Below are positions 4,690 to 45,926 of a stretch of 50,017 nt of DNA, piece after piece. The DNA lies in the NCBI GenBank assembly GCA_018398765.1, contig JAHBMJ010000323.1, forward strand, positions 1 through 50,017, read 5' to 3'. The DNA comes from Chromera velia (Eukaryota). The position numbers and the translations under genes are program-made. The notes below the pieces were generated by a model. It did no database searches. It saw only the letters and a list, made by a program, of their open reading frames with translations, and was not told where the DNA came from. How positions within the stretch are numbered: position 1 is the stretch's first letter; each line of letters begins with the position of its first letter.

Positions 4690-6802
4690 AATAAAGATTG
4701 AATTTAATGCAGCGTGACTGACTATATCTGAATGAGTGCAGGACTACAAGTTGATTGAGCGTGCTTGTTTTCTTCCTCGGCGGAATCCTCGCATACATGA
4801 ATGGATGGAACTTTTCGGTGAATTTGCTGAAGCGAAACTAAGAGCTAGTTCTAGCTAGTTGAAAAAGACCATGCACAAATTCAAAAAGGCTTGCAAGTTG
4901 CTGGCTGCAACCCGAGCCCGCCCAGTTCAAGTTAATTGTCTACTTAATTGTGTAACGTCTAGTGTAACGTAGTTTTTCACTAGCTAGGTTAGAGTAATTA
5001 CTACTAGTAACTCAACTGTGGTAGTAACCATACTGTGTATAGTTTTTCAAGCCTAGTTTTAAGCAACACTGTGCAATACTCTTTGCAATATCTGAACAAT
5101 ACTCTAGCAACACCTTATAATAACACTAGTAACAACACCTGAATTAACTTAAACAAGTTTAAGAATAAGTATTTAACAGTTATTCTTTATGTATATAATG
5201 CTCTTTATAATCATAATACTCTTTCCAATTATAACAGCCAACTTTAAAAGTTTTTGAATATACATTTTTAAATACATGCATTTAAAAGAATTTTTTTAGG
5301 TGGAAGAACGTGAAAAAACATAGGAAAAAACAAATGATTAAGTGAAAGCTAGCTACAGGAAAGCCAGAGTGAACGCTTCTCAATTCTACAGTTATGTACA
5401 CTGAAAAAGTTTAATTAATTCAAATGTTAAAGTTTAGGGGCGGACTTTATTATGAAACATAACTTTACTAGTTGCTTTACAGATCAGACCCTAGATCAGA
5501 CCTACGTACAAGATTAAAAATGATTTCGTTCTAGATTTTGTTATACGTATGCAAATGTATCAAACCGTATTCCAATCGATTGGAAATAAGGTGACTTAGA
5601 AGTTCACCGACTAGTTTCAAGTTACCGACCGTAACTGACGTCAGCACGCGGAAAAAGCCGCTGCTAAAGTCAAACGATCCCAGAAACGATCGATTGAGCA
5701 TACCAAAATGAGACCAAAAGTGGCCTGTCACTGCAAAACTGCGCGGCCGTCCTCAGCGCCCGTCCGCTTCAAACAAATGACAAGAAATCTATACAAAAAA
5801 TGCACATGCTCGTCTTGCCATACATGGATGGGGCTGCTGAACTGCACTGCGTGGCATTGCAAGAGTTAACAAAAAAACTGATGAACACTGATGCCATACG
5901 AGCTCAAACTCGGAAGGTTTCTCGACGTGGAGCAGGACACTTACGCCATCTCTCCCAAGTCTCTCTTTCTCTCTCTCTGTGTACTTACTTTCAGTGCGCT
6001 ATGCTGTACTTTTCTTCTGTCTTTCTTCGATTGCCCGAGTCTAAGTGCCTCTTTGCCGGCCTTCCTGTCTTTCTAACCGTTCGATCATCTGCTCTGATGG
6101 TCCATTCGGGGCCGAACTCTTTAGAGCTTTCACTCAACTGTACCCCCCGATGTCTCTCTGTCTCCCTCTCTTCATCTACCTCTGCGGGCTTTTGTATGTA
6201 CAACAACTTGTGAGTCCAAACGAGGAATAAGAAAAAGACGATCAAAGGAATTCAATCAATCAATCGGGTCTTCCTTCCAGCCACACCACAACAGACAGAC
6301 GTCTGCACATGCAGCCTCTCCTTTTCTTTCTTTCTTGCTCCGCTCCTCTGTCTAAGAAGAGCGTGTCATTCTTCACATCAGGTCCTCAAAAGGGAACACG
6401 ACATTCAGGGCCTTTCTGCACACACGTCAGCAAGCAAGCAAGCAGAGAAGCAAACCAACGAGAGGGGAAGAGGAGCAGGAGCTCAGAAGGTAACTCTGCA
6501 TGTGCCATCATGCTGAAATGAAATACTTCGACAGAGGACTTCCGAGAGTCGGCATACACTGGACAAGGAAGGACAAAAGAAGAGCAGCACCAAACGAAAC
6601 GACAGCGTTGTCTGAGCAGGTGGAGGGAAGGCACAATATGTATTAATACTTCATTGCTAGACCAGGACCACCATATGCCTGTGCTTGGGTCACCACAGAA
6701 AAGGAAGAAACCCTTAAAAAGCGATATTCGAACTTGCACAAGCCACGAAACGCCCCCGAGGTACCTAGTAGACCTCCCCTTGCATTCACGCATCCCACCC
6801 AT

Positions 6803-9080: not shown

Positions 9081-9122
<42 letters not shown>

Positions 9123-10547: not shown

Positions 10548-10578
<31 letters not shown>

Positions 10579-10745
10579 GAAGGAAGGGAAGGAAGGAAGG
10601 AAGAAAGAAAAGAAAGAAAGAAAGAAAGAAAGGAAGGAAGGAAGAAAGAAAGGAAGAAAGAAAGAAAGAAAGAAAGAAAGGAAGGAAGGAAGGAAGGAAG
10701 GAAGAAAGGAAGGAAGGAAGGAAGGAAGGAAGAAAGAAAGAAGGA

Positions 10746-10784
<39 letters not shown>

Positions 10785-10873
10785 GAAGGAAGGAAGAAAG
10801 AAAAGAAAGAAAGAAAGAAAGGAAGGAAGGAAGGAAGAAAGGAAGGAAGGAAGAAAGAAAGAAAGGAAGGAAG

Positions 10874-10907
<34 letters not shown>

Positions 10908-10908
10908 A

Positions 10909-10940
<32 letters not shown>

Positions 10941-13720: not shown

Positions 13721-16644
<2,924 letters not shown>

Positions 16645-17791
16645 GGAGAGAGAATGTTGAAAGGAAAGCAGCGTCGGCAGTGCCTTTGGGAAAGGGACGG
16701 AAATGGGAAGGCGGGAGTGATGTGAAGTGAGGGTGGGTGCATGTGGGGGCATTTGCCTACGCTGACGACGACAGTGTCCGTTGATGTGTGTAGGTGGTAA
16801 CTTACTTGCTCTGTGCATGCATAAATGAATGAATGAGAAGATGAATGGACTATTCAAAAGAAAAGAAAGAAGAATCGCCGAATTCGTTCACTCGTTCGTT
16901 TTGCTTCAGTCTTGTCTTCCTGTCATGTCTTTCTATTTACACTTACGTTAACGTGAAGGAGAGGACCGAAAGCCCGAGTCCCTTCCTGATCCTGATCGAT
17001 TTGCATGGAAAAGAGAAGAGAGGTGAGTCGAGTCAAGGATTGAATGGACTGGGCGGGAGGTGTTGGGGAGCACGGTTGCATATGCGAAAACAGGGCATCG
17101 CAGCGGTAGTCCCCTCAGGAGCGGCACCTCTAGCTGTATTGCGCCCCTCCTCTCTCTATGCATGGTTCTCTTCTCTGTATACGGAGAAGGGACAAAAGAA
17201 GGTGAGCAAGAGAGGAGAGGGTATCTATTTCCAAAGCCAGCCAGCGTCAGCTTGTCTGTCGTTCTGATTTCTGTTTGTAAAAGAGGTCGGCGTCTGATTA
17301 GAGAGTGAGGGAGGGAGGGAGGGGAAAGGAAAGGAGGCAGCAAGCAAGTTTTCACTCTTTTTCGACTGACTGACAGGGACAGAGACAAGTCGGTTGGTTG
17401 GTTGATTGTTCCATGTAAGAGAATTCAAACATCGCATCGCACGTGTGCAAAGCTGCGACCGAGACATCTAATCTCATTCTCAGCCTCAATCAGTCTCCAC
17501 AACTTTTTCTTCACTCCGCCTGTCGCTCTTCCCCGCCACCTTTCCTTGTCATCCTCCGTTCCTTCCCCCCTTCACCTCAAGGAAAGGCGACCCATTTGAT
17601 CCACTTCTAACGGTGCAGGGCAGAAAAAGAAGAAACCAGAAGGGAAGGAAGCTAGGGCTACACGCCACGCAATGAGACAAAAAAAAAAAGTCGGTGTGTC
17701 TGCCTTTCCCTTCGCCTCATCGCAAACTCGACTTACTGGAAGAGAAGGATTCAGTTTTCGAAGGACGGTCAAGCTGTTTGCAAACCGATTG

Positions 17792-17830
<39 letters not shown>

Positions 17831-19690
17831 CATGCCTGCAAGATCAAACCAGACCAGACAAGAAGAGCGGTCCATGCACCCTTCTGTGGCACTCCAAATG
17901 CCCAAAGACAGTCGGAAGGGGTTGGGGAGAGTGATGCGTTCTCTGTTATTTACTGTTCCTTCTTCTGGACCAAACAACGAATCCAAGCACCTCCGGAAGG
18001 CCCGTTGGTGCTCAACTTAGGTAGAAGAGAAATGGTCGCTTCACACCTCCTGCAATCGTATCAAAGCCGCAGAAGAGAAAAGTCATCTTGAGGGTCTTAC
18101 AGGACCGTTAGATACTCTGGGGCATGCATTTCGTCAATGAACGTGTCGGTCGAGATCGCGGCTGTTGCAGCCCTTCAGAATTAGGCTGCATCCCTCTTTC
18201 TGCATGCTCCGCTAAACCTTCATCTATGAGTCGGCTTGCTATGTCAAAATAGTGAAAATAGTAAAAATGGTGACTATTTTTACTATTCGCTACGTCGAAT
18301 AGTAAAATAGTTCATAATAGTTAGCCATTTTTATTATTTTAATAGTAAAATAGTGCTTTTACTATTAAAATAGTAAAAATAGCTAACTATTTTCTACACA
18401 GTACGGTTAGGAGTTACTAGAGGAGTTACTACCGGGCCCTTTGGGGGGGCGGCGAGTTACCGTCACTTTGGTAACCATGGGGCGGTAACTTAGGGGCCCA
18501 AGGGCCCCTACCACTACGGTGGTAGTTCGGGCCAAGACCCCGGCAAAGGATACAAAAAAAGCGTGACGTATGCATGGATTGAAAAAAAATCCGTCTCCTT
18601 CAAATCCGTTTCAACTTTCGAATTCAAAATCAATTTTCAAACGAAGGTCAACCTTACTTATGGTCAAAATTATGGAATCGTTTCTCTTCTGTCCCCTGTT
18701 AGAGCAGACAAACAATTGACGAAGGCTTCAGTTCGGCAGTGATCAGTGCTTTCTCATGCGCACTGTATGTGGAAAACTGGGAAACAACACTGAGTAGTCC
18801 ACTTTTTCCTAGTTTACTGTTCACTGTGTCTAGCGGTTTTCGGTTTTTTTGTCTTGTCGTGAGATGCAGTGTAGTGAAGTTTTTCCTTCCTCCTCTCTCC
18901 CCTCTCATTCTTCGTTCTTCTTTTTTCTTTCCTGTGTTTTTGCGGCCCGCTTCTTGATTCCTTCATTCTTCGTTCTTCTTTTTTCTTTCTTGTGTTTCCC
19001 TCCTGCCCAGAAGAGGCAAGCCACGCATCCACTTCAAGGCTGACCGGCCGCATAAGTCTGGGTAGAAAGGCAGCGACATACCGATCTCCCAGTCACCCCT
19101 CAATGTTGCATTCGTTAGCTAGATTCGTTGGAGTTTGAGTCAGAGCGGAAGTGCAGTCACTGCACAGTTATTCATGTGCATCGCGGTGCATCCCAGACAT
19201 ACCAAAGCCGAGCCTTGTACGGCAGGCTCATACAGTTCTCATTCAATGACGTTGGTCTTCTTATGAGGAAGTGTAGTTACGGTTACTCAACACACTGAGC
19301 TGAGTACAGAGGTCGACGCCTTGCACAGCCCTAACAGGCCTTACTAAGTGACCTTGACTGTCTGGTTTACACAGTCCGGACATTCATATTATGCATCATC
19401 ACACAGTTGGACAATCAACGCTCGCACTGCAGCATCATAATGCCATTCTTCATAGACTTTGAGATAGATTAATATCTTAGACCTAAGAGTTTAACAACAT
19501 TGGCGTTTACTCTGTAGCCTCTGTTGATTCTAGATTTGATGGTAAAACTAGGTAAAACAGGTTTAAAGTTGACTAGTATTATAGAAAATATGCAGTACTA
19601 CCACTACCATGGTCATGGTACTAAAAACTACTACCGTAACCGTGAAATTGGTAACCCGGGTGGCCGTTAGCATCCTACTATCGTTACTCC

Positions 19691-19926
19691 AGAAATAATA
19701 TGGATTAATCTGGACGACTATCAGACACACGGACTCTCATATGCAAAGTCGTTACGACTGGTAAGAGACTGACATTATGACAAGGTACAACGATCCTTCT
19801 GTATCTTGCAGGTATCTGTATCATATGATTGATAATACAGATCCTATGAGGATAACGTCAGATTCAATCATCCCTGGCACCCCTGACATCTCCATTCTGA
19901 GACTGTCATGAATCTAATTCACAACT
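19691..19926 (-). repeat. 3' LTR
   Basis: Ungapped match to 24572-24807, about 21 mismatches in 236 nt by eye. Confidence 0.93.
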
Positions 19927-19958
19927 CACCCCCTCATGACAGGCGAACGATCCACACT

Positions 19959-22900
19959 TCAATCATAGATCGATTGACCAAAAGCAATAGGCTTGGTGAG
20001 TGGATTGGCTGCCTGAATCTCATGAGGGATCCAAACAACGATGGCAGACAATTGCTTGCATCTCTGAATGCACCAGTCGAGAACATGCTGCATCTCCGTG
20101 TCTGAATCTGCCACCCCCGATCTAAACTGATCATGCAAAGGGTTACAGTCAATCAAGAACTGAACGGGTATGTCTTTCTGAAAATTCCGGCCAAAAGAAA
20201 TCAGTCGAGGCACACGCTTGAGGCACTGCTCAAACCCAACCAATTCTGAAGCTGTGGAGCTGCCCAGCTTGACGGTCGAACGCATCGAACGCCATGTGAA
20301 AATGTTGAACAATTCATCTCCTGGCTTCCAGACATGATCAACGAGAAGAACAATCTATGCATGCCTTCCTTCGTATGTGTCTTTCTCATGAGAGGAATCA
20401 ATGAAGAAAACCATCTTAAGAAGAGGAGAGCGAGACAGACGGCAGAAATTCAGACCTTCTAGATCTTTCTTAATTTCGTGCAGGATTCTGACAGCAATCA
20501 CGAGATGCCTGTGGGTCGGTGTCTTCCCATAGCGAGAAAAAACATCGTACCACACACGACGGAAAGGAGAGAGACGTCCCCCCCAACCCAGACACCCGAT
20601 CATACTGCTGTAGATGTCTTTCAGAGACAGATCTGGTTGCTCACCTTCCTGTAGATGAAAATCCTTTTCTTTGCATGAAAACGTGCCCCCCACTCCTCCT
20701 CGAGGGATCTTGTATTCTTGAAACAGTTTGTCTGTGTCCACCCCCTCAAGATACGAAGACATCGAGACTCTGCACTCCCCTTTGTCTCCTTCAAAGTCCA
20801 TTCCCACATACTTGAATTTGTATAAAGCCATATCAAGCTTCGTCATTTTCCCAAACTCCATCTCCCCCTGCAGATGTCGTATCACCCTCTCAACCTGCCC
20901 AAAAGCAATCAGACCAAAAACGTCATCAATCCAATTGATGAGAACATTCTTCTCTTTATCAACTGCAATCCCTAACTCTATTTTCTCAAACCCTGCCCGC
21001 CCCGTTGTCCCAACCCACTTGTTGTCAAAAAGTTTGGACAAGATAGGCATGCCGTAGAGACCGCGAACAACCTCTCGGATCTGTCCAGGCAAGAGAGATC
21101 TGGCGTACTCTTTCACTCTCTCCCACTTCTTGGGCTTCATGTCTGGACAGGGGCATACGTCTGGGATCGGAGGCATCCACATAGGCATGCGCGTGTAGAC
21201 TCTCTCTGCATTCGTGTCGGTAGACTGAAGGAACGCCCCCTTCACATCCCCTACAAAAATCTACAAAGCGCACGCGAGTGCCCAGATCATGCAGAAAAAG
21301 ATCAAAGCAGGGACAGGAGTACCTGTGAAGGTATCGATCTTTCTCTTATCCTGGAAACCCTTCCCGAAGCATCGGGCTTTTAGCACTCTCTTTGTCGCTG
21401 TGGGGGGAGAGTGACTGGGAGATGGACTTCCGTTCTTTCCTTCCTTCACCTTTCCTTTCTCTGTCTCTTTCTCCTTCCATGTGAGCCTCCAGCTAAGATC
21501 CATCGCCATCTTGGCCTCTTCCCTCGGAACCGCCCTCCCAAACACCTCCTGCCCACAGATGTTCTGGAGCCACTCATCTCTCATCGCCTTATTGAACTTC
21601 CCCTCCCTCACCTCTTCTTCCTTTACTAGAATGTTGGTGGAGCCTTTCTTGAAATCAAAGGCTGCCAGCGTCTCCAATAATTCCGAATACATTGACCCTT
21701 GTTCTGCCCCCCCCTCGTGCTGAGGATTTCTGAGAAGGTCGGAACCAAACAAGGAGTCATCAGGAGGAATGCCATCAGGGTGAGGGGCTGCGGGTATATC
21801 CCCACCTGCGTCTGGCGGCACCCCCTCATTCACAACACCCTGCTGCTGTGCGGACAGACCGACACCAATCGGAGGGGGGCCTGGAGAGACTTGGGATTCG
21901 ATCTTGGCAGGCAGACGGTCGTCTACGAAATCGAAATAACGCAGTACTTGCTGTTTCTGAATGGGATTCGGCGCTATTCCCTCTGCACGCCACTTCTCAC
22001 TCCCATCCCCCACTGGCTGGAGCCATGCTGCAGGGATGAACTTGTGATACGCTTTCCCTGTCTGCATCATCACAAGACACCTGCCATTCGCTTCCACAAG
22101 CAAACCTGTGTACTTCCTCTGGCTATCTCCCGAAGGGCCCGCTCCCTGCTGTGGAACCTCTGCCTGGACTTCTATTCCCAGATCCTGGTCGTCGCCTCCT
22201 ATGCCTGCTGCACCCCTCCCGTCCTCTTGAGCAGTGGCTGCCCCCCCCTGAATCGCACCGATCTGCAGAGGAGCCCCACAACCCTGTGGATGGGCGGCAG
22301 GAAGGTTCTGACCAGAAACCTGATTCCGTTGAGTGCGGATAGGTCTCTCAGCGAACCCCAAAATCCTTTTGATTCCAGTCGGGGCCCTTTCTGGGAGGAT
22401 GGGTGGGCTGAACGACCTGCAGGTTTCGATGAACTTACTCCCAATCAACTCGGGGCCCCTGTCTGTGAGGATCTTCTTAGGAACGACACCGTAGTAATCG
22501 ATCCAATCCATCAAGGAATCTGCAGCATCACGGCGGCCACGCATCGGAGTGTCAAACTTGCTACAGATGTGGAGATCTGTCCAAAGATTCCCATACAGGA
22601 ACCCACTGACCTCTGTATCCTCATTCCTAGGAAACCACGTGTCCAAATACACCTCATCCCCGAATTCCTTCACCTTGCTTCTTCGGCTCTTCTCCCAAGT
22701 CGTTGCCCTCAACGATTTGTTAACTGCCTGCTTCTGCTGGCAAGTCCGGCAAGTGGCAGTAATCTCTGCTGCCATGGCTGCTGTGATGGACTTTCCGTCC
22801 TTTTCGAGGGTGAGACGGAAATATTTAGCTCCTGAATGGATGCCGAGACGATCGTGCTCGACTCTCGCCTCCTCTATGTCCAAACGACGCAGCTCAAGCT

Positions 22901-24524
22901 ACACACACAGAGCCTACCTACCACCACCCCACTCACGGTCGAACTCTGCTTCCTTTTTCTTCGCATTAACAGGGAGAGGAAAGGAAAGGATCTGAGAGCA
23001 GCAGTGGCCATTCGGTGCATCAACAGTGACACGATGTATAATACCACGGACATCTCGCACATCAAAGTACGACGGCGTCTCACCTGACCTATCAAACGCT
23101 GCGCAGGCATCATATGTGACCAACGTAGGAACATCGTCATCTGTGAGGTAGAGATATGTGTGGAACAGCCCACCCGTCTCGTTCTCTAGAATCATGGTGC
23201 CGATCCCATTGACATTGATCCAAACACGCTCAGACGTTTGGCGGCCATCGCCGTCGCACTTTGCAACGCCGACGCGTGCGGAGTACGGCTGTTCCTGAAC
23301 CAGAACTCCAGCTCTCTGCAACCTCCCACGATTCCCCGTTCCCCTCTCGGTACCCGTGTCTACCATGGCCCGTCCGACATCATGCCGACAGTTCGTACAC
23401 TGATATGTGACACAGTTTGATGATTGCTGGAAATCAAACGCTGTGTGAGGGGAAGGGCGGAAGTTGGGCATATCATACTCTCCGATGACGAACTCACCCG
23501 GGTTACCCGGATCTCCTCGAACATGGTTGACTGTTTGTTTCTTCTTTGACTTGGGTGGGGCGGCATTCTTCTCTACCATACACCTGCTGCACCTGCAGGT
23601 TGGCTTCTAGTGGCCCAGACGACCACAGCACTTGCACTCATTCCCCTCTTTGAGTGATTCGCATGTACTGGGGTTCTTGCAGCTGCTCCGACCACAATGC
23701 CAACACTTCTTTTCGGAATTCGAGACAAGGTTGCCTTTCGGCTGAGACGAGTTGTTTGACTTCTTCGGGAGACGGGTGTTGTTGGGTTTTTCTTTGTGTA
23801 GGAGTCCCATCCCACCTCCAACAAACAGTGCAATCTCTTCTTTCACGACGGTCTGTATATCCCCCTGCTTCTTGGGTGCAAGCCCTTCCTTCCGCGGGGC
23901 AAACTCATCTCCGTGTACTGTCTTGCACATCTCAGTGAGTTTCTGAATGAGTACATCTGGATCCTTCAGCTGTGCGGATGTGAGAGTTGCCGACCAGACA
24001 TCCTGCATCGACTGGGACAGGGATCTGAGTACTGCATTGGCCCTCTTCCTCATGAGAACTTCCCTTTTGAGACTATCGGTACGGGTTACCAGGTTTCTAT
24101 ATTGATTAATCACCTCAGTCCCGGTTGATCTGCTCAAAGCGGGGAAAGTCTCCCATTCTCTTTCTACCTTATCGCGTTTCTTTTCATCGTTATCCTCCCC
24201 CGATGACTTGAGGGTATCAATAAGGGCCTTTTTATACTTATCGTACTCAATACTCCCGTTGGCATTGTCATAGTCACCCGCTTTCCCCTTCTAAAATACG
24301 TTGTCTATGACCACCCCTACCCTAGGGTGTCCTTTTGTTGACCGATAGAGCTGGTCGCATGTCCAACGATCCAGCTTCACCCCGTCAAGGTCTACTTTTC
24401 CATCCAAAATCGAAAGGAAGGAGTCGTAAAACCTCGAAAAGGTATTGACCTCATTGACTGCCAAGTCTTTATCGGGTTTGTCGATGAAGAGAGGGAAGAC
24501 GAGCTTCCCGTCCGTTGCAAACAT
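19959..24524 (-). pseudogene. Gag-Pol polyprotein in one frame with six premature TAG stops
   Basis: Zn knuckle CKCCGRLGH*KPTC; protease VDTG; integrase HDRLGIH..CRTC, DTW, TDRGPE, AERPIR; RT LKARCFGKGFQD, DVKGAFL, GLYG, WIDD; RNase H FIDSS, STASEL, IDC, NPLTK. Confidence 0.9.
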
Positions 24525-24571
24525 TTGCACAGCCTACTCCAAACCTCTTTTACTCTCACTGGCGTCATACC

Positions 24572-24807
24572 AAAAATAATATGGGTTAATCTGGACGACT
24601 ATTAGACACTTGGACTCTCATATACAAGGTCGTTACAACTGCTAAGAGACTGACATTATGACAAGGTACAACGATCCTTCTGTGTCTTGCAGGTATCTGT
24701 ATCATATGATTGATAATACAGATCCTATGAGGATGACGTCAGATTTAGTTACCCCTAGCACCCCTGATATCTCTATTTTAAGACTGTCATAAATCTAATT
24801 CACAACT
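24572..24807 (-). repeat. 5' LTR
   Basis: Direct repeat of 19691-19926; followed on the minus strand by a PBS-like sequence. Confidence 0.93.
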
Positions 24808-25101
24808 ACTCCTAAGCGTATTGTGTACTATTTTCTAACTATTTTACTATGTGGCGTAGCAAATAGTATAAATAATAACTATTTGAACTATTTTTACTAT
24901 TTTTTTAACTATTTTTACTATTTTAAATAGCTTGCCGAGTCAATACCGACTCATAGATATTAATTCTATATTCCTACTTATTGTTAATATTATTTTATTT
25001 TTTTAAAAGAAGTTTAAAAGAACTGTAGTGATAGTGAGAGTGATTTAATTAGTGCCCTATAGCTAGGTAGAGCACTGTCGCCATTCTATCAGATTCCCGG
25101 C

Positions 25102-26395
25102 CTGAAGAATGTTTGGTAAAAAAGTCTAGTTATACCAGACATTTTGACTTACCTTTTTGAAAAGTTAACTCACCATTTTGAAAAAGTCCAGTTGATGGAT
25201 TTTGAGAAGTGTATAGAGTATGAATTAAGCTGAAATTTTGCGTACAAAGTGGGCTTAAAGCGGCTAGAAACAAACATTAACTTTTGGGAGAAGCACATTT
25301 TAGGTCCGTTTCTAGCATGTCCGCCTCATTTTTAACCTTCCTTCCATCTACACAACAGTGCAACACTCCTCGCTACATCGCAACACACTAAGTTCTATTC
25401 GATCAATCACTCTTTTGTGGTTCTGAATCAGTCGTCCATGAGGATAAGTGCGCTGCTGAATCTACCCATCTCTCCCCATTCGCGTGCATGGCCTCGCGTG
25501 TTCCTGATACACGCACTTACTGCCCGTAGATGGGCAACTTGCAGCCGTGCTCAGATTTGTGCACACACCTTCCCATACCCCTGCCTCCACTTTTTATTCA
25601 ACAGTCCCGCCAGCCTGCACAGCAATGTGTTGGCTTCCTTGTAGAGTGTGTCATCCACCAGGCTCATTAGTGGGATAAAGTCGTATCCTTTGTCCTCACA
25701 TGCCCCTGCGTGCTTCGTTTTCTTCTCTTGGGCTTGGAAAGAGAGGACGGCGGTCCAGGGGGTGTCGTCTTTGGAAGTGGCATACGGGTTGCTTACCCTT
25801 GTATCGAAAATTGCCTGCCTCTGTCGGACGTACGCCCCCCGCATCTGGAAGTCCCCTTTTAACACTGGGTATCCCGACACTTCTCCTTCCTCCCGGATAA
25901 TAGGTTCACGACCATTCACTGCCCGCTCTGGGTACGCGTCAGCTGCTAGTCCAGCCTAGATGGCGTTGACATCATTGTGGCGCAGGGTGACAAACCCCCC
26001 CACCTTACAATTCAGGGTATGTTCGTTTAAAGGCCTTTGCCATTTTTTTTTTTTAATTTTCATAACTAAAACTAGTCTAGAAGAAATGTTTAGTTGTCAA
26101 AAATGGTAACTTAATTACCAAAATTTATTAATAAAATTCCGGTAAGTTGTCTTTTTGATTTACCATTTTGGATAACCGGACATTTCTTATAAAAGGCCTT
26201 TAAAAGTTAATGTTTGTTTCTAGCCGCTGTAAGCCCGCTTTATACATAAAATTTCAGCTTCATTCATACTCTATATACTTTTGGAGATCCACCAACCAGA
26301 CTTTTTCAAAATAGTAAGTTGACTTTTCAAAAAAGTAAGTCAAAATGTCCGGTAACTGGCCTTTTTTGCCGGACATTCTACCGGACATTCTTTAG
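25102..26395. mobile_element. Foldback/MITE with ~180-bp inverted arms, interrupted by a non-LTR fragment
   Basis: 25106-25285 is the reverse complement of ~26202-26379; the left arm resumes (AAAGGCCTTT) after the insertion. Confidence 0.75.
25286..26025 (-). mobile_element. 5'-truncated RLE-type (CRE/R2-like) non-LTR retrotransposon: end of CCHC, restriction-like endonuclease, 3' UTR
   Basis: EHTLNCKVGGFVTLRHNDV, KGDF, IFDTRV, EKKTKH, FIPL, I*ARLQVAHLRAVSACIR; two stops; possible TTT TSD. Confidence 0.8.
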
Positions 26396-27386
26396 AGAAG
26401 TCGCTCCTGCATCAGACCTGCGAATGGTAAAGGTGCGCCCCATAATGGCCCCCATTGCTGAGGCTTCAGTCCGTACCCCGCAGCCTGCCTAGGGGTTCCT
26501 CCAGACCGTCAACGACCAACATTCTTTGTTAATTCACTTTGCACTGGCATGTTCTTGGTTAGGAAATTGGGAACTGATTGCTAATGCATGCTGATTCAGA
26601 ATCTAAAGATCGATCCAATCGAATCCAATTGCAAACAATGCCTGGACATCTGTGCTTTCTGTACACGCTAAATTTCAATCTTCTCTTTCACCTTCCTCCT
26701 TCTTTGTCCTTTAATTCTTCTTGCTTCTTCCATTTGATCCAGTATTGTTTTGTATTCCTTTCTTCTTTGAAGTTCTTTCTTCCCCCTCTCTCTAGCCCTC
26801 TCTTTTTCTCTTTGTGATGGCTTTATGCTTCTGCGCTAACACTGTCTCATCTAGCTAATAGGCTGTTTGCCCCATACCATCCCCATATGTTCCCGAACTT
26901 TCTTCAAACACTCGTCTCCTGAATGCTACGTTCCCCAAATTTAAAATTCATCCACCACTGCATATCGTTCGTTCAGCAGAAATGCAAAAAGAACGTGTGT
27001 ATCCTAAATTTTTTCTTCTTGTCTACTGTTTTTCCTTTCTCTGTATGCCTCTCTTGCCTTCAGGCTGTCTTCTCCTCGGCGGAAGACATTAAAAAATAAA
27101 AGATTAAATACATGTCAATTTTTCATTTTGTTTTTATTGATTTATTGACCTCGTTCGACTTCGTGTCAAAGAGAAACAGACTAGAAGATCCACTCGTTTG
27201 GTTGGTGATGCTACAGGACATCAGAGGCTAGATGATGGTCAACTAGAAGGCAGATATCAGTGATTGACTTCTGTTGGCAGTGTTGGTAGTCAGAGCCGTC
27301 TCCAAGAGTTCAGGTCTAAGGCTAGAGTCCAAAGACAATCTGAATCCATCTGAATCTAAAATTTGAACGAATTTGAATCATGACGA

Positions 27387-28223
27387 TCCGCATCACTGAG
27401 ATAACTTAATAATAATTATTTCATATTATAGGAAATGTATAATTATTATTGCATTATTATTTAACGACTATAATAATTATTTAAAGAACATTCCTGAAAA
27501 TCGATAATAATTATTTCTATTACATAATGGATGTAATAATTATTTATACACTTCAATGAGTCTCAACTGATCAAAAACGATCTGTATGATAATCATGATG
27601 ATTTATTTGACTAGTCATTTGAAAAAGTTTAATCCTAGATTTTACCATGTCATTTCTATCACTTCAGTGAAATCCATCAATCTATCCTCTAAGTTTGCTG
27701 CGGCTGTCTGCATCAACTCGATTGTCTGGCATGATTCGGATACGATCTTTCACAGAGCAGACAGGGAAAACTGCATGGTCCCTAAGCTCTACATACTTAC
27801 ATGTCGGAATAAGTTTAAACCTCGGCCAACTTTTCCTTTCATGTTTTCCGCAGATTCTGCTCAATTATGGAGGGGCGGAAGGAATTACACTTCAACCGGG
27901 AAAGCCCGTTTCGTTTTTTACAAACATGTACGCAAAGACCCTTGAGTAGGGCAAGATGCTTCCCGAGTGTTACTTCAAGACCGTTGCGCCTGATAGGTTT
28001 AGGGGGGTGACTGCGTCGGAGACAGCATCAATGATCCTTTATGTCGCGAAGGTTAGGAAAAGGTAGAAATCTGTCTGGCTCCCCCTCTCTCTAAGACTTC
28101 CTTCCTTCTTTCCTACCTTCCTTCCTTCCTTCCGGCCTTCTTTCCTCCCTTCCTTTCTTCCTTCCTTCTTTCTTTCTTCTTCTCTCTCTCTCTTTTTCCC
28201 CTCTCTGTGTGTGAGTATGCATG

Positions 28224-28263
<40 letters not shown>

Positions 28264-29662
28264 TGGTCTGTGCCACTTTTTTTATCTCAATGCAGATCAT
28301 CGCAGGAGAAAACCCTTGTCAGAGGGGATGGGGGCGGGATGTCTTCGGCCTGATGGATACAATCGAGTTCCTTCAAGAGGCGCTCGCAGATACTCAGTCG
28401 AGACTTTGGGAGGATATGCAGGGAGCATGTGTTACCCGCGAGTTATTTCGTGAGGAGCGGGATGAACTGAATGAAAGGGTCGCGGCCTTTGCACAGTTCT
28501 TAAGAGAGCATCTCCTGCCCCCCCGTTCGAAATGGACAAATGGGACCATTCCTCTGCTATGGAAACGGAACACCAATTTTTTTTTATGCGCCAAACAGGG
28601 AGAGAGGGGAAAAGGGGGCTCTGATGGGAAGGGGGGTGGAGAGGAGGTCCTGGAAGAGCGGCAGGGATGGGAAAGAAACGCGGGTCAGGAAGACGTGGAG
28701 CAGGCAGTTGTGCAGCTTGAGGAGGAAGAGAGAGAACTAGAGAGAAAGCTGCGCACTTTTAGAGACAAAAAGAAGCAGTCATCAACCTCTTCCGCTTCTT
28801 CTTCCTCCTGCTCCTCCTCTTCAGCTGCCTCAAAAAGGGGGTTGCGGTTGAAGGGGCGGAAGGGGGGCGGTCTCATTCGTCCCTCCTCTCAGTCAGGTTC
28901 CTCTTCCGGGCCGCGCTCTGCGGCTGCGTCTTCCTACGTGTTGAGGACATACACATAAAAGGAAAAAGGAGAAAGCAAAGGAAAGGAAAACAAAGAACGA
29001 GCTCTTTTCCTCCCCGAATCGATCCCTTTCTTTCTACCTGTCTATCTATGTGTCTCTCTCTCTCTCTTATGGATCTACTTGTCTTTCTATCTTTTGAAGG
29101 TCTACCGTCTTTCTTTCTTTCACATGCGCGAATTTAAAATTTCTGAGGGGGAACAGGAATGATCCAGGGGGACGCCATCAAATCGCACAGTAAGGCCTTC
29201 CTTACCTGATTCTTTGAGTCTCTCATGAAGAAGGAAAAGAAAAAGAAAAAGAGGGAGAAAGAAAAAAAGTCATTTCTTTTTGTGCTTCTTATGTGGATCG
29301 CAATAATTTGTTCCTCTTTCTCTTTTCTTGACCCTAGCTCTCGACCAGTTTATCTGCCGAAGTCCGTGATGTCGGCGTCGTCGAGAGGTCGTGCATACCA
29401 GGTCACTCCTTGCCTGCCTGGTCGTTCTCTTTACTAGTGCGGAAGCAAGCATCGACCAGCCATGAGGACTTTTATTATTGAAAGCCACTCCTGTGTCTGA
29501 ATAATTATTATTTTGATGTATAATGATTATGTCTGTCAGTGAATAATCATTATTGATATGAATGATTATCATATTGGTCAATAATAATTATTCTTAAATA
29601 GTGGTTATAGAGTTTCAATAATTATTATGCAAAACATCTTTGAGTTATCTCAGTGATGCGGA
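27387..29662. mobile_element. TIR element (20-bp perfect TIR) with AATAATTATT subterminal repeats and captured coding sequence
   Basis: TCCGCATCACTGAGATAACT (27387-27406) and AGTTATCTCAGTGATGCGGA (29643-29662); no TSD recognised. Confidence 0.75.
27853..28958 (+). pseudogene. Spliced gene fragment of unknown function inside the TIR element
   Basis: Putative exon ~27853-28051 (one in-frame TAG at 27947-27949), GT-AG microsatellite intron, exon 28296-28958 with coiled-coil-like and Ser-rich tail. Confidence 0.45.
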
Positions 29663-34788: not shown

Positions 34789-34829
<41 letters not shown>

Positions 34830-36099: not shown

Positions 36100-36977
36100 T
36101 GAAATTGAGAACGATTCTCTTTGCCGTTAATTTGTAAGACTTTCGTACAGTGCGGTTCAGTAAAAATTAAATTAATGGAGAACTTTCTGCACAATTAGTG
36201 ATTAGTGATTAGTGATTAGTTATTGAGTTCATTTCTAGTTTATATGTCATCATCATCATCATTCACCATCGCTGTACCTTAGTCTATTACGGCCCGGGCC
36301 ATAAATACCCATCAATGGGCGTTTAGCGCTCGGCTGATTCGAGCCAGGGTTCGAACTTCTACAAAAGAAAACAAAATGTACGTCAATGTACGTAGATGCT
36401 AGTATATGCATATAGACCATGCATGTCTACTAGTAGAAGTATTGCAAAAAAAAACGTTTTAAATTTTCAGTTCAAAAAAGAAAAAAAAAAAAATGCTAGA
36501 AAAACGATAGAAGAATATTTTAGGGAGGATGTAGGTAGTATAACTGCTAAGTTACTACTTTAAACCTATAGTTTTAAACTCCAGTCCCTTGTATTTCCCT
36601 ATATGTCAAATTATATCGAATTAATGATCCATATTTTATTTTTAATTATTTTTGGATTAACGATATAATTAACTGACTCAAACTGATTCAAACTGATTAA
36701 TTATATTCTACCGCGATACCTACTGACTATTAGTAGCAGTGACTACCACTGACGGTCAGTAATGCTAAGTAATAGTCAGTAATTATCAGTAATATCTGTT
36801 TTCCCCCTTCCCCCCTCACCCTTTACCCTTCTCCTTCCTGTTTCAATAGGCCGCGGAGGGCACCTTTAAATTTCGTTGATAATCGAGGATTAGGGTGTTG
36901 TCATACATGCCTTTAAGTGTCTTTTAATTGTCTCTCGCCAACCGGCGGCCGGCACCTTGATTTTCGTTTTGCAATTA

Positions 36978-37527
36978 CCGTATATTTCACCATACTTTGC
37001 CCATTGGGGTTTCGGGTCCTCCACCTAAACATACCAAGTTTAAAAAAACTCCAGATAAATCCATGTAAAGAGCCTGTCCAAAAGTGAGGGGGCACTCATG
37101 CATTGCAGCCTACAAGAAGCGTGCACTGCCTCAGTCACAGCTCAGGATTCCTCAATCTAACCTAGAGAGAGAAAAGAGTCGTCAGCCTCCCGGGTGGACG
37201 GTCTGGTGGGTGCCCTGCAGAAAGAAGAAAACGACACATATGGACAGAGGGGCATGCAGGGAGACAGATGGGCAAATCTTTCAGTTCTTATCACTTCAAT
37301 AAAAATTTGATGAAAAAGGCTGTTCTATGGACCCCCCCGACCTCAAAGATGTAATCAGCAACTTTGGAGACCCCCATTTGGTCATTTGAGCTGTGACCCA
37401 AGATCTCCCCCTGCCTCGACTTTGCACGATCTCTCCAGCCAGAAATTTAAAGAGACGGCAGAGAAATGCATGCACGGGCGGCCCCGGAAGGCAGTGCGAA
37501 AGTGGGCAAAGTATGGGTGAATCTGGT
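36978..37527. mobile_element. MITE copy 1 (~550 bp, TA flanks)
   Basis: TA|CCGTATATTTCACCATACTTTGCCCA ... TGGGCAAAGTATGGGTGAATCTGG|TA imperfect TIRs. Confidence 0.75.
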
Positions 37528-37857
37528 ATCTGAAGAAAAATTCGTATGGGACGTCATAGAAGGAGGCAGGAGGCAGGAACGGCATATGAACAGGAAAGGG
37601 TCTCATGGTATACAGAAAACAAAAAACGCCATCTCTGGCCAGGAAAGCATGGCACAGCCACACAGAGTAGAATGAAAGATACAGAGGGGGGGGCACGTCT
37701 AACGCTTTGCTGACCTGCCTTCCTCTCTCACCACAGAGAAGAGGAGAGATGCCGAGGGAGTGCACCTGTAGAGGGCATGCATGCACCAATATATACACTG
37801 AGTGACAGGCCCCTGCCGCTAGTAAATTCAGCCAAGGAAGAGAAACAAACAAGCATA

Positions 37858-38407
37858 CCGTATATTTCACCATACTTTGCCCACTGGGGTTTCGGGTCCT
37901 CCACCTAAACATACCAAGTTTGAAAAAACTCCAGATAAATCCATGTAAAGAGCCTGCCCAAAAATGAGGGGGCACTCATGCATTGCAGCCTACAAGAAGC
38001 GTGCACTGCCTCAGTCACAGCTCAGGATTCCTCAATCTAACCTAGAGAGAGAAAAGAGTCGTCAGCCTCCCGGGTGGACGGTCTGGTGGGTGCCCTGCAG
38101 AAAGAAGAAAACGACACATATGGACAGAGGGGCATGCAGGGAGACAGATGGGCAAATCTTTCAGTTCTTATCACTTCAATAAAAATTTGATGAAAAAGGC
38201 TGTTCTATGGACCCCCCCGACCTCAAAGATATAATCAGCAACTTTGGAGACCCCCATTTGGTCACTTGAGCTGTGACCCAAAATCTCCCCCTGCCTCGAC
38301 TTTGCACGATCTCTCCAGCCAGAAATTTAAAGAGACGGCAGAGAAATGCATGCACGGGCGGCCCCGGAAGGCAGTGCGAAAGTGGGCAAAGTATGGGTGA
38401 ATCTGGT
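37858..38407. mobile_element. MITE copy 2, direct repeat 880 nt downstream of copy 1
   Basis: Near-identical to 36978-37527 (about 7 differences, all transitions); own TA flanks. Confidence 0.75.
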
Positions 38408-39040
38408 ATAATGTTTTACATGCATGCATGTATCATCATCGTTGCTATATAATTCGCTATACATGCCGGCAGTCTGAACGACATAAAAACTTTTGAAGCT
38501 TTAACTGGCTCACTATAGAGACCAAGAAGTCAAGTTGTTAGAAAAATCCCAAACCTGAAGGTTTTCCATTTAAAATCGTGTAACAAAGACAGCCTCAAGC
38601 TGAACCGACGTCTCGAAAAACCCTGTCACCTTAATTGCCCAATGTTCCGTCTCTGTCCATTTCTTCTTAGCGTGTCGGCATCGGCACATTTGCTTTCCAG
38701 AGGCATTGAGAGACGCGGTCCGACTTCTGGTCCCCAAAATTCGGTGGTCAGTCAGTCAGTTGGTCATTCGGAGCCCACTGCGCTGAGACGGTTTTCCAAA
38801 CTTCTGTAATTAACAAAAGGTACTCTTGTTCCGCATATTGCGCAAACCGCTTACACCTGCTTGCAAACCCGTGCAGGGTAATTGTTTCGGGAAGGGCCAT
38901 GCAGCTTGCCGTTCCGGCATGCGTCGGTGAAAGTCTCTAGGGTAAAAGTATTACTATGTGATTCCACTGCCCTTTGCACCTTTTCTCACTGCATCTTCCC
39001 TCAATTTTGGTTGCAGATTAACTTTCTTGAGGCATCTAGT

Positions 39041-40640: not shown

Positions 40641-43039
40641 GTTAAATTGAACCCCGTATGGATCAAAGTTGAGAAGGCACACAGCCGTCCAGAAACGTGC
40701 TGCGGTTGACTGATTGAAGTCAAACTTATGGAAAAGAAGTTAGTCAGAAGCCGGGTAAGAGGGCCGAAGGGCTTAGGGCTCTTTAGGAGGCAAAAAGGTT
40801 AAGAGACTTGAAGAAAGCTACCAGGGCGGTTCCAGTCAAGTGACTTGTACACAGCTTGCAGAGCTGTCAAGCTGGCAGATCGAAGTCTGATCAAAAAGTC
40901 TAGCTGCAGGTATACCAGTGACAAAACGGTTATTGCAGGCTTAATCTGCATCGTTCATATTCACTGTATCATAGCTCACAACAATAAAACCTTTAATTGA
41001 CAAACCTAACGTTGCATAGTATATAATGTTTATGATTTAGTTGAGTTATATATAGGTTAGGATTTTAGATGATTTTAGATTAAATTCCCCAAAATCCTTA
41101 ATTTTTAGAGGCAAAACGAGAATGAGTTAGATATTTATATTAATGGTGCTCATGGTTTTAATATACTAGTTAATGTAGAGCTAGAAGTACAGTTCAAGTA
41201 CTATTAAAATCGTTTCCCAATTCAGTATATAGTCACGGCTAGCTTGCAAGACATTAACCTTTAAACCTTTGATCATTGGTTTAAAATCTGAGCTATAAGT
41301 AGAAATATTAAATGAAAATCTAATAGTCCGCTAGATTTCTATATAGCTTCCTATAAAATTTGGTAAAATCTTTTTATAGTTTTTGAATGGAAAGGGGTTG
41401 ACAATTATAAAAACCTGGCTAAAATTCCATAAAATTTTTTAAACTCCTAGCATAAAATCCTATAACACCCTAGCTGTATTTGCAGTATTGTGTTAAACTT
41501 TAATTTCTATAGTCTTCAAACAGAACCATGCAGTTTTGCATATATTTTTATTATTAAAATTTAAAACTAGACTTAAAATTGATTATCAATATTATACATT
41601 CTACATTGCCGTACAGTTAGCTGTGCAGTACCGTAGTAATTAACGTGATACTAGGGCCTAAGCTCTGCGTGCTGGTCTAGGTGCTGGTAAGCTAGGCTGT
41701 TAAACCAGCGTAACCGCATGTTACGTAAACTTCTTTTCAATTAAATTAGGTAGAATTCAGCCAACCTGAGCCATGAAGAGATGCTGACCACGCCGAAAAT
41801 TGGCCCGAAATGGCTTACATTTGCTTTCGATTACAGGATTCAATGATCAAAGGATTGTTGTTGTAACATTCAATGGTCGATCTTGTTTGGAAGAGTAATA
41901 GTAAGCCACCGCTTGTGCTCTGGCCGCAAGCTATTCAAGTCCACGGCCTAGTCCATCGCAGAAGGCCCCAACTCCTCTTCATATCTTTTGAGTGCCCCAG
42001 CAGATCGAGATCGAATTAAAGGGCCACTGTCATTGGCATGTACCACTGCAGGCACTCATGACCGACTCATTCTGCTGCCCTGCTGAAGTTGAGCCCGTGT
42101 CTCTCTCTGTCAACATGAGAGGTTTCTTCACAGGTGAGAGCAGTGGAATGACCGAGCTCCCTGAAGGTCCTCTGCCCTTTTCGTCCCTTGAACCAATGTG
42201 CGTTTTTGGGAGAGGCAAACTCAACTCCCGCTCTCTGCTTTCCAGAAATTTCAGCAGGACCTCCTGTTCTCCTACACCACACGGAGAGGCATCCGAGGGG
42301 GCAGCCTCGGCGGATGGGCTCTTCCTCCTCTTGACCTGCCAGCTGTCGGACGCTCTGTTGGTCTCTCTGAAGCGGAGGGATCTCCTTGGGGTCCACGTTG
42401 AGGTCTTGGGGTGAGTTCTTCGCTTCTTTCTTCTGGGTTTGGAGGGCGGCTCCGTCGGGGTGCGTCTGGCTGATGTTCTTCCCATCGGCTTGGGACAAGG
42501 CTTTGGTCTCCTGTGGCTCAGCTGAACCCTCTTTGTTGGAGAGAGGAGGAGGGCGGGCTGTCGAGTTGAATTTCTCTTTGGGTGAGGGGGATCTCTCTTC
42601 TGATTCTGTCCCTGTCTGTGGGTCTATCTGAATCTCTGCTCGCAGCTCGTCCAGAAGAGAGGACCGCCACCCGTCCGCAGCGTTGGAGGAAAAATCGGCG
42701 TCCTCGAGGAGGGAGGCGAAGAGGAGAGAAGCCTGTGAGGAGAACGAGGGGAAGAGTGAGACGTGCATGTGGAAAGGCAAAGCAGGTCCTTCTGTAATCC
42801 ATCATTATCCATGCTGCAAGTGACGGTCAAACAGCACTGTTGTGTGTGTGTGTGTGTGTGTGCCTGTGTGCAAGTGAGCTGGCGAGCTCCCCACGCTCAC
42901 TTCAGTCTGCTTCTGTAACGCCCCGGTTCCCTCTTTGAATGATGCATCGAAATGTTTGCACTCTTCGATCTGTAGCATGATGCTGCCGGCTGAGTGAAAT
43001 GAACGAAGCGACAGTCTGCATGTCACTTCATGCACTGAC

Positions 43040-44636: not shown

Positions 44637-45926
44637 CATCGCCTCGGGGGGCAGCTCAGCTCTGCTGAGATCAGCCGAGAGGCCCTGAGATCGCACGGAT
44701 CCGCATAACGCATTTTTTCATTTTTGGGGGGGGGGGGTTCGGTTCTGTCTCTGTCCGTCCGTCACGGTATCGCCCAAATCTGACGTAAGCAAGCTTGCGA
44801 ACGGCCCCGGAAAGCAAGAAAAATGAGAACTGCACGATTGACGTACGCCGGCCATGGTGCTGCATTGCATGGTGCATACATGGTAGCGCCGANNNNNNNN
44901 NNNNNNNNNNNNNNNNNNNNNNNNNNNNNNNNNNNNNNNNNNNNNNNNNNNNNNNNNNNNNNNNNNNNNNNNNNNNNNNNNNNNNNNNNNNNNNNNNNNN
45001 NNNNNNNNNNNNNNNNNNNNNNNNNNNNNNNNNNNNNNNNNNNNNNNNNNNNNNNNNNNNNNNNNNNNNNNNNNNNNNNNNNNNNNNNNNNNNNNNNNNN
45101 NNNNNNNNNNNNNNNNNNNNNNNNNNNNNNNNNNNNNNNNNNNNNNNNNNNNNNNNNNNNNNNNNNNNNNNNNNNNNNNNCCCCCCCCCCCGTAAGAAAA
45201 AAACCCGGGGTTGAGCAGATCTGAAACCCGGCCATCTGACGCATGCATAGCGTAAATCCAGCCTTTCGGGGCCGGGTTTTTGACAAAAGACTAGCGTGCA
45301 TGCATACGGGCTGGGGTATTTTTGTTTTGTAAGTGCCCCCCGCTTCGCTTTCTAGAGCCATTCCAAAATGTGCCCCTCAAGCAAGTCGCACGGAGCAGCG
45401 ATCACATTATAATTACTTCGCTCCTCATAATACGTGCCCCTCAAGTAACTCGCATAGAGTTGTACATGCGTGGCCCCAAAAAATATATTTTGCGCACATT
45501 GCCGTAGCCCCCGTCACTTTATACAGGCAAGACATGCCCAAGTCCTAGGCCCAAGTCGATCCTTGATGTTTTGCATCAATCAAGTTGGCCGACCCCCTAA
45601 ATGGCCCCCCAAGGCACTCACCCAACTGGTTGGGTGTATCCTGTGTTTATGCATGTAAGTATATGCAATCTTAGGGCCTCCGCAGGCCGGGTTGAGCTGC
45701 CCTCCGAGGCGAAAAGTATTTGGTCTATTACTCCATGCGAGCTGCTTAAGGCGCACTTTTCACTAATGACGATATGGTTTATGACAGACAGAGACATGCA
45801 GAACCAAACTAAACCGAACCCCCCCCCCAAAAAAAGAAAAAATGCATTATGCGACTGCGTGCAATCTCAGGGCCTCTCGGTTGATCTCAGTAGCTAGCTA
45901 GAGCTGAGTTGCCCCCCGAGGCGATA
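44637..45926. mobile_element. TIR element with ~120-bp inverted arms, CATC termini, TG flanks; spans an assembly gap
   Basis: CATCGCCTCGGGGGGCAGCTCAGCTC.. versus ..GAGCTGAGTTGCCCCCCGAGGCGATA; arms ~44637-44755 and ~45790-45926. Confidence 0.7.
44893..45180. other. Assembly gap (N run); smaller gap at 10029-10047
   Basis: N bases. Confidence 1.

What the first reader, a model, noticed from the sequence alone, without database searches (positions are those of the whole stretch)
19691..24807. RIP-like CpA->TpA hypermutation of repeats in a non-fungal (probably chromerid) genome
Seen: the two LTRs differ at about 21/236 sites without indels; 19 are transitions, 11 of them CA/TG vs TA and only 2 in CpG context. 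TIR ends show the same change (GATG->GATA at 24959 and 45926; CTCAA vs CTTAA beside the 27387 TIR). Repeat blocks (e.g. 4850-5500, 41000-41700) are TpA-rich while neighbouring genes are GC-rich and intact. Known: CpA->TpA mutation of repeats is the hallmark of ascomycete RIP (RID/Masc1-type methyltransferase). Inference: an analogous repeat-directed mutator, or heavy CpA methylation with deamination, acts here. I am not aware of it being described in this lineage but cannot check.
Basis: partly seen in the sequence, partly recalled or inferred. Interest (0 to 1): 0.88.

Follow-up and report, generated by a model that had tools for sequence, protein, structure and literature searches.

The report
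C-to-T decay of Chromera transposons
Transposon copies in the reef alga Chromera velia are worn down mainly by C-to-T changes, about equally at CG and CA steps, which is likely slow repeat-biased damage rather than the fungal RIP defence, and is puzzling because a published survey lists no ordinary DNA-methylating enzyme in this alga.

Summary
The window is Chromera velia DNA; the element is a Copia-type retrotransposon nested in a DNA transposon. CpA is not favoured over CpG. In ten other loci of the family, C>T changes per opportunity were CpA 4.5%, CpG 5.0%, CpC 1.2%, CpT 1.6%, against 0.25% for the reverse change. Both strands are hit, with no strand runs, and the load follows other changes, as for gradual decay rather than RIP bursts. 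A second family and two read-layings show CpG but no clear CpA excess. Host genes and introns are strongly TpA-poor, so the CpA part is probably repeat-restricted; the direct control, mutations in unique DNA, was not obtained. A published survey lists no RID/DNMT4, DIM-2, DNMT1, 3 or 5 in C. velia, only four DNMT2. Verdict: a real, strong GC>AT decay of transposons with CpG+CpA preference, probably methylation-like, not RIP proper. The scan noted similar patterns in fungi, none in this genome.

The parts
24560..24804 (-). 5' LTR of a Copia-type retrotransposon (TG...CA ends; alignment runs on to 24807); carries most of the TpA states of the pair
   Evidence: 9 of 41 CpA sites changed vs 23 of 364 in the interior, p=0.002
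19679..19923 (-). 3' LTR; its terminal TG reads TA at 19679-19680; flanks CCTAC (19674-19678) and ACTAC (24805-24809) are a likely 5-bp target duplication with one mismatch
19959..24524 (-). Single gag-pol frame (gag, two Cys/His knuckles, protease, integrase, RT, RNase H in Copia order), no frameshift, six internal TAG stops (24293, 23609, 22916, 22901, 21263, 20357); a seventh in-frame TAG at 24536 lies upstream of the first ATG
   Evidence: weak Pfam Retrotran_gag_2, E=0.004, below cut-off; UniRef names of paralogues: Ty1/copia RT, integrase; other copies have Q (4) or W (2) at the six stops; domain order partly read from motifs I recall
18221..24959 (.). DNA transposon remnant that hosts the Copia element; 14-bp inverted ends 18221-18234 and 24946-24959 differ by one CpA/TpA change
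   Evidence: multi-copy depth in runs X1, X2
25106..26379 (.). Element with 180-bp inverted repeats (86% alike): CpA 8/19, CpG 4/6, CpT 3/21, CpC 1/7
27386..29662 (.). Element with inverted ends; CTTAA vs CTCAA difference between the arms
44637..45926 (.). Element with inverted ends around an assembly gap: CpA 1/9, CpG 2/14, CpT 2/13, CpC 1/21, plus the terminal CpA/TpA change
46665..48558 (+). Repeat pair 46665-46833 / 48383-48558 in which CpG dominates: CpG 11/29, CpA 4/17, CpC 3/16, CpT 3/17
36976..38409 (+). Two linked 554-bp MITE-like copies, 98.7% alike; 7 differences, all transitions, no CpA or CpG excess (CpA 2/83, CpG 0/30, CpC 1/85, CpT 4/77)
4850..5500 (.).
41000..41700 (.).

Best explanation
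Transposon copies in Chromera velia accumulate C-to-T changes on both strands about eleven times faster than the reverse change, three to four times faster at CpG and CpA than at CpC or CpT, and the likely cause is a cytosine mark laid on silenced repeats (most plausibly 5-methylcytosine at CpG and CpA) that deaminates gradually, not a one-off RIP event. Shown: the spectrum, its polarity, both strands, no strand runs, a constant context ratio across copies of different load, and the contrast in composition between remnants and genes. Inferred: that the process is restricted to repeats (from composition only), that a base modification is the intermediate, and that it is gradual. Unknown: the enzyme; the four DNMT2-class proteins listed for this alga are the only candidate I can name, and DNMT2 is normally a tRNA enzyme.
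For: Ten other loci (20 protein models) compared with the window's codons, polarised by majority, 1286 codon sites: CpA 64/1436, CpG 54/1070, CpC 21/1782, CpT 22/1363; A/T>G/C transitions 15/5885; 25 transversions; 9 multi-step. CpA vs CpC+CpT p=1e-9, also by distinct sites (57/280 vs 42/643, p=3e-9). With neighbours fixed inside the codon: CpA 14/371, CpG 26/422, CpC 13/905, CpT 7/459. The window copy's own changes: CpA 23/364, CpG 19/233, CpT 13/291, CpC 9/395; all six internal stops are CpA-type. Runs X1/X2: 955 of 1185 and 932 of 1149 variant places are transitions; against runs X5/X7 the window more often holds the A/T state (176 vs 82; 235 vs 195). No preference for the 5' base at CpA/CpG, no strand runs (83 vs 80 expected, p=0.33), CpR:CpY ratio even across loci (p=0.43), CpR rate follows CpY rate (rho 0.68, p=0.03). 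Host C/T ratio before A is 3.4 (gene bodies), 3.9 (two RNA-confirmed introns, 779 bp), 104:25 (fourfold sites), against 0.40-0.62 in remnants; the Copia rates would settle near 0.06-0.07 before A, a gap of about 50-fold, against 4- to 14-fold for the other contexts (my arithmetic). Precedent: Dim2 gives mitotic C>T at CpA in Zymoseptoria transposons (PMC8016269, abstract).
Against: No DNA-type methyltransferase is listed for C. velia, and the same paper says species with only DNMT2/DNMT6 have undetectable 5mC (PMC12344493). No methylation data were found. No mutation spectrum for unique DNA was obtained. The CpA excess is uneven: a second Copia family (9 loci, amino-acid classes only) gives CpG 12/159 but CpA 1/97, CpT 7/165, CpC 5/369 (low power, p=0.22 against family 1); the 40 listed rows (40 of 1524, not a random draw) give CpA 7, CpG 8, CpC 10, CpT 9 of 34 transitions; the 40 of 248 rows give CpA 7, CpG 9, CpC 6, CpT 9 of 31; non-LTR repeat pairs CpA 17/65 vs CpY 22/143, p=0.08; the MITE pair shows none. 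The reverse rates rest on 2-5 events per context. TpA avoidance in transcribed DNA may be selected, which weakens the composition argument. The 5' LTR is more mutated than the interior (p=0.002) and load differs among loci (p=4e-10), which age alone may not explain.
Confidence: 0.5

Rival explanations
1. No targeting: this is the genome-wide spontaneous spectrum (AT-biased, CpG and CpA hot), seen bare in neutral transposons, while genes and introns are held GC-rich and TpA-poor by selection or biased gene conversion.
For: No DNA-type DNMT listed; clock-like, strand-even pattern; host CpG is mildly depleted too (o/e 0.71); for CpC, CpT and CpG the gap between Copia equilibrium and host composition is similar (4- to 14-fold), as one context-blind force would give; CpG can be mutable without methylation in S. 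pombe, though there mainly C>A (PMC4704713, abstract).
Against: CpA is the most C-rich context in host introns and fourfold sites (3.9; 104:25), the opposite of what a genome-wide CpA>TpA bias predicts, so an extra roughly ten-fold force against TpA in introns is needed. Composition flips within a few hundred bases at element borders.
Confidence: 0.28
2. A true RIP analogue: homology-triggered, burst-like C>T mutagenesis of duplicated DNA with a CpA+CpG preference, as reported for Aspergillus and Tuber.
For: Transition:transversion far above 2 (176:25 nonsynonymous; 22:4 in the LTRs); CpA+CpG signatures are accepted as RIP in some ascomycetes (PMC4352252, passages); linked LTR and inverted-repeat pairs are the most changed; 10 differences cluster in 46 bp of the 5' LTR; load varies strongly among loci.
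Against: No RID/DNMT4 or DIM-2 listed and DNMT4/RID described as confined to fungi; no strand runs; load of only 2-15% of CpR sites; one locus has 1 change in 661 codons; a linked 554-bp pair at 98.7% identity, an ideal RIP target, shows CpA 2/83 and CpG 0/30; the genome holds about 30 Mb of transposons (PMC4501334, passage).
Confidence: 0.1
3. Unmethylated cytosines deaminate everywhere, but uracil excision or mismatch repair is weaker in transposon heterochromatin.
For: Needs no methyltransferase; even CpC/CpT C>T (1.4%) is five times the reverse transition (0.25%).
Against: Gives no clear reason for the 3'-purine preference; loss of mismatch repair should add T>C changes and frameshifts (established knowledge), yet the 4.6-kb frame has 78 amino-acid changes at scored sites and no frameshift.
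Confidence: 0.09
4. Reverse-transcriptase errors or APOBEC-like editing of the element's cDNA.
For: One locus shows 14 G>A vs 2 C>T (p=0.04, one of ten tests).
Against: Both strands are hit at equal rates (CpA 23/483 vs 41/953; CpG 20/466 vs 34/604), the context is set by the 3' base and not the 5' base, and inverted-repeat DNA elements show it too.
Confidence: 0.03

Closest known systems
Repeat-induced point mutation (RIP) of Neurospora and other Pezizomycotina (RID, DIM-2)
   Same: C>T on both strands of repeats, TpA-rich AT-rich remnants, nonsense codons from CAG and TGG, high Ti/Tv.
   Different: CpG is as hot as CpA; light, age-like load without strand runs; a linked near-identical pair is spared; no RID or DIM-2 listed; no link to sex shown.
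Dim2-dependent mitotic C>T at CpA in Zymoseptoria tritici transposons (PMC8016269, abstract read)
   Same: Gradual, transposon-biased C>T with a CpA component that needs no RIP event.
   Different: There the enzyme and the 5mC are shown; here no Dim2 is listed, no 5mC is measured, and CpG is equally hit.
CpG(+CpA) transposon signatures of Tuber melanosporum, Aspergillus and basidiomycetes (PMC4352252, passages read)
   Same: Mixed CpG and CpA signature in transposon copies.
   Different: Those fungi have RID/Masc1, Dim2 or Masc2 enzymes; this is an alveolate with only DNMT2-class proteins listed.
5mC deamination decay of methylated transposons in plants and animals (recalled, no call)
   Same: Slow GC>AT erosion of repeats led by CpG.
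   Different: CpA reaches the CpG rate in the main family, with no CHG (CAG) preference: CAA 13/275, CAC 17/326, CAG 16/374, CAT 18/461.

Membership tests
RIP (RID/Masc1-dependent) | Strong excess of C:G>T:A transitions in repeats (Ti/Tv > 2) | tested here: met
   176 transitions vs 25 transversions among nonsynonymous changes; forward 2.8% vs reverse 0.25%
RIP (RID/Masc1-dependent) | CpA preferred over all other contexts (classical signature) | tested here: not met
   CpA 4.5% vs CpG 5.0%, p=0.51; pooled window pairs CpA 30/106, CpG 29/77; family 2 CpA 1/97, CpG 12/159
RIP (RID/Masc1-dependent) | Confined to repeats, unique DNA spared | tested here: inconclusive
   Composition fits; differences in unique genes exist in runs X7/X10 but their sites were not listed
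RIP (RID/Masc1-dependent) | Many changes per event, in strand-coordinated runs (recalled feature) | tested here: not met
   83 same-strand neighbours vs 80 expected, p=0.33; even context ratio across loci; several RIP rounds could hide runs
RIP (RID/Masc1-dependent) | Any long, linked, near-identical duplication is hit | tested here: inconclusive
   554-bp pair 880 bp apart, 98.7% alike: CpA 2/83, CpG 0/30; one case, may be too young; no close host paralogues found
RIP (RID/Masc1-dependent) | A RID/Masc1 (DNMT4) or DIM-2 methyltransferase in the genome | not testable with these tools
   No genome held. Published table lists 0 for both in C. velia; that table has misses, e.g. 0 DNMT2 for P. falciparum although PfDNMT2 papers appear
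RIP (RID/Masc1-dependent) | Acts before meiosis in the sexual cycle, triggered by homology | not testable with these tools
   Needs crosses or introduced duplications
5mC-deamination decay of silenced transposons | C>T excess led by the methylated context, gradual and on both strands | tested here: met
5mC-deamination decay of silenced transposons | 5mC present on the transposons | not testable with these tools
   No methylome found in searches
5mC-deamination decay of silenced transposons | A DNA-acting C5 methyltransferase (DNMT1/3/5/DIM-2/orphan) | not testable with these tools
   Published table lists none, only four DNMT2
Ty1/Copia LTR retrotransposon | TG...CA LTRs, target duplication, integrase before RT | tested here: met
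   Pfam did not detect the RT or integrase pieces at E<=0.01

The most novel reading that the evidence does not exclude
Chromera velia has its own repeat-directed cytosine mutator that marks or deaminates CpG and CpA in transposons without RID, DIM-2, DNMT1, DNMT3 or DNMT5, possibly through repurposed DNMT2 paralogues: a genome defence that converged on a RIP-like outcome in the closest free-living relative of apicomplexans.
Probability: 0.2. Interest if true: 0.85.

Novelty: new variant of a known kind. Interest (0 to 1): 0.52.

Why it matters
Transposon-biased C>T erosion is familiar from fungi, plants and animals, always with a DNA methyltransferase to blame. C. velia shows a methylation-like scar but is listed with DNMT2 only. 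If a methylome confirms CpG/CpA marks on its transposons, it bears directly on the disputed question whether DNMT2 can methylate DNA in vivo, or reveals an unlisted enzyme, and on how the apicomplexan lineage controlled and lost its transposons. If the spectrum proves genome-wide, it is an ordinary but useful estimate of the mutation spectrum of a chromerid. Either way public data can settle it.

Tried and rejected
No whole genome is held, so no genome-wide RIPCAL or DNMT search was possible. The search for related loci in metagenome contigs: 99 pattern matches, none confirmed. No run is on record as RNA: no RNA holder listed; X5-X10 are guessed RNA, so nothing is claimed about expression. Control on host paralogues: the LRR gene gave only 31-37% hits and three host frames were not in the collection as exact sequences. 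TAG reassignment as the cause of the in-frame TAGs: rejected, since other copies have both Q and W there and 2625 host codons hold no internal TAG. All-TAG stops as evidence by themselves: weak, p about 0.11 for seven CpA-type stops under flat C>T. CHG-type (CAG) preference: not seen. UV signature: not supported, the hot contexts need no neighbouring pyrimidine. Rows dropped before counts: P0011 and P0029 (the window's own gene models), P0003, P0004, P0021 (too distant), sites with fewer than 4 sequences, no 60% majority, or in poorly aligned stretches. Stop-creating changes are invisible in other copies' protein models and were left out of their denominators. [quoted passage not shown] Supplements of PMC9998398: 12 of 23 files searched, no Chromera row; the other 11, and bioRxiv supplements, were not seen and may list its methyltransferases.
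Full report
What was checked. All counts hold: 21 of 236 sites differ, 19 are transitions, 11 at CpA and 2 at CpG; the three end differences are there; the two named blocks have GC 0.31 and TpA/ApT 1.42 against 0.53 and 0.47 in gene bodies. Per available site, however, the LTR pair gives CpA 13/41, CpG 2/12, CpT 4/30, CpC 2/16: CpA beats CpC+CpT (p=0.04) but not CpG (p=0.47).

What the DNA is. Relatives of the element's proteins are Chromera velia CCMP2878 gene models, and one, Cvel_16650, matches the window at all 670 aligned residues. The element lies on the minus strand with LTRs at 24560-24804 and 19679-19923 and a likely 5-bp target duplication; it is one gag-pol frame of about 1520 codons in Copia order, without frameshift, broken by six TAG stops. 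Other copies have Q at four and W at two of these, so each is a CpA>TpA change on one strand or the other; alone this is weak (p about 0.11 for seven). It sits inside a DNA transposon with inverted ends at 18221 and 24959. Read depth shows nearly the whole 18100-27700 stretch to be multi-copy, and single-copy pieces of runs X1 and X2 match the window (0-1 differences in 312-532 bases), so the differences are not assembly errors.

The family spectrum. No genome is held, so I used 20 protein models from 10 other loci, aligned to the window's codons and polarised by majority at 1286 sites. Nonsynonymous C>T or G>A changes per opportunity: CpA 64/1436 (4.5%), CpG 54/1070 (5.0%), CpC 21/1782 (1.2%), CpT 22/1363 (1.6%); reverse transitions 15/5885 (0.25%); 25 transversions; 9 multi-step. 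CpA equals CpG (p=0.51) and both exceed CpC+CpT (p about 1e-9). The result holds in gag, integrase and RT parts, by distinct sites, and with neighbours fixed within the codon (CpA 14/371, CpG 26/422, CpC 13/905, CpT 7/459). Thirteen changes are shared by two loci and may be counted twice; contexts across codon borders use the window's neighbours. The window copy's own changes follow the same order (CpA 23/364, CpG 19/233, CpT 13/291, CpC 9/395). Both strands are hit alike, there is no 5' preference at CpA/CpG and no CAG preference.

Burst or clock. Load differs among loci (p=4e-10), from 1 change in 661 codons (Cvel_15104) to 23 of 174 CpR sites (Cvel_3176/7), but the CpR:CpY ratio is even (p=0.43), CpR follows CpY (rho 0.68) and changes show no strand runs (83 vs 80, p=0.33). 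That is what gradual decay of copies of different age gives. Against a pure clock, the 5' LTR has more CpA changes than the interior (9/41 vs 23/364, p=0.002), with 10 differences between the LTRs in the 46 bp nearest the AT-rich flank.

Results against a CpA rule. The other repeat pairs of the window give CpG 27/65, CpA 17/65, CpC 10/63, CpT 12/80. A second Copia family (9 loci, amino-acid classes only, codon shares borrowed from family 1) again shows GC>AT bias (64 vs 12) and CpG 12/159, but CpA 1/97. The rows listed by the two read-layings (40 of 1524 and 40 of 248, chosen by support) show CpA 7 of 34 and 7 of 31 transitions, no more than its share of sites. Two linked 554-bp MITE-like copies differ by 7 transitions with CpA 2/83 and CpG 0/30. 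So CpG is the steady hot context and CpA is a second one whose strength varies.

Is it confined to repeats? The direct test failed: runs X7 and X10 differ from the window in unique genes by about 0.45%, but those sites were not listed, and no close host paralogues were found. Composition is the only evidence. The C/T ratio before A is 3.4 in gene bodies, 3.9 in two RNA-confirmed introns and 104:25 at fourfold sites, the highest of any context, against 0.40-0.62 in remnants. From the Copia rates the equilibrium before A would be about 0.06-0.07, some 50 times lower than in genes, while the gap for CpC, CpT and CpG is 4- to 14-fold (my arithmetic; reverse rates rest on few events). One context-blind GC-favouring force could close the smaller gaps but not the CpA gap.

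Mechanism. A 3'-base preference on both strands, led by CpG with CpA, is what deamination of a methyltransferase's targets leaves (established knowledge). Zymoseptoria Dim2 produces mitotic C>T at CpA in transposons without RIP (PMC8016269, abstract), and mixed CpG/CpA signatures occur in Tuber and Aspergillus (PMC4352252, passages). RIP proper needs Rid1 (PMC12543289, passages). But the survey in PMC12344493 (supplementary table rows and passages) lists for C. velia no DNMT1, DIM2, DNMT3, DNMT4/RID, DNMT5, DNMT6 or orphan enzyme, only four DNMT2; it calls DNMT4/RID confined to fungi and says DNMT2-only species lack detectable 5mC. The table has misses, so this is not proof of absence. I put a repeat-biased cytosine mark with slow deamination at 0.5, a bare genome-wide spectrum at 0.28, a true RIP analogue at 0.1, weak repair in heterochromatin at 0.09, and RT or cDNA editing at 0.03.

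Prior work. The genome paper (PMC4501334, passages) reports about 30 Mb of transposons and has no occurrence of 'point mutation'. [quoted passage not shown] The Tetrahymena paper (PMC1557398, passages) mentions RIP only as a comparison. Earlier notes of this scan describe CpG+CpA decay in early-diverging fungi; none concerns this genome.

Verdict. It is best filed as a new variant of transposon C>T decay in a lineage where none was reported and where the expected enzyme is missing. Interest 0.52.

Noticed in passing
window gene bodies (900-17900, 33566-36099, 42000-44260): Very strong TpA avoidance in host genes and introns: TpA o/e 0.32-0.38; at fourfold sites G:A after T is 127:14 and C:T before A 104:25. 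A force removing TpA from genes may deserve its own look.
   Followed up: partly
Cvel_15104 (P0034), another locus: Near-unmutated copy of the same Copia family (1 change in 661 codons), so the family moved recently.
   Followed up: partly
39041-40640 +: Leucine-rich-repeat gene split over two overlapping frames at about 39850; best longer relatives found are only 31-37% alike, one from Mortierella. Possible pseudogene or assembly slip.
   Followed up: partly
36976-37529 and 37856-38409: Two young MITE-like copies with imperfect 28-bp inverted ends; related copies in runs X5-X10 differ with many transversions and no CpA excess.
   Followed up: partly
33604-36123 and 41737-44330: Runs X7 and X10 differ from the window by about 0.45% in unique genes while X5 and X6 nearly match: a second strain exists in public data and is the needed control.
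   Followed up: no
family-wide: Among CpC/CpT sites, those preceded by A almost never change (1 of 579 vs 42 of 2566).
   Followed up: no
24536-24559: No obvious primer-binding site next to the 5' LTR; the flank is purine-rich on the coding strand. Not examined further.
   Followed up: no
25551-25955 -: Open-frame fragment carried inside the 25106-26379 inverted-repeat element, high copy by depth, no Pfam match; looks like a non-LTR retrotransposon tail (recalled resemblance).
   Followed up: no
2900-4090, 11351-12885, 13655-15200, 33566-36099, 41737-44260: Ordinary host genes: diacylglycerol kinase, squalene-epoxidase-like (recalled resemblance), protein phosphatase 1, radical-SAM RlmN-like, vWA-domain protein.
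   Followed up: no
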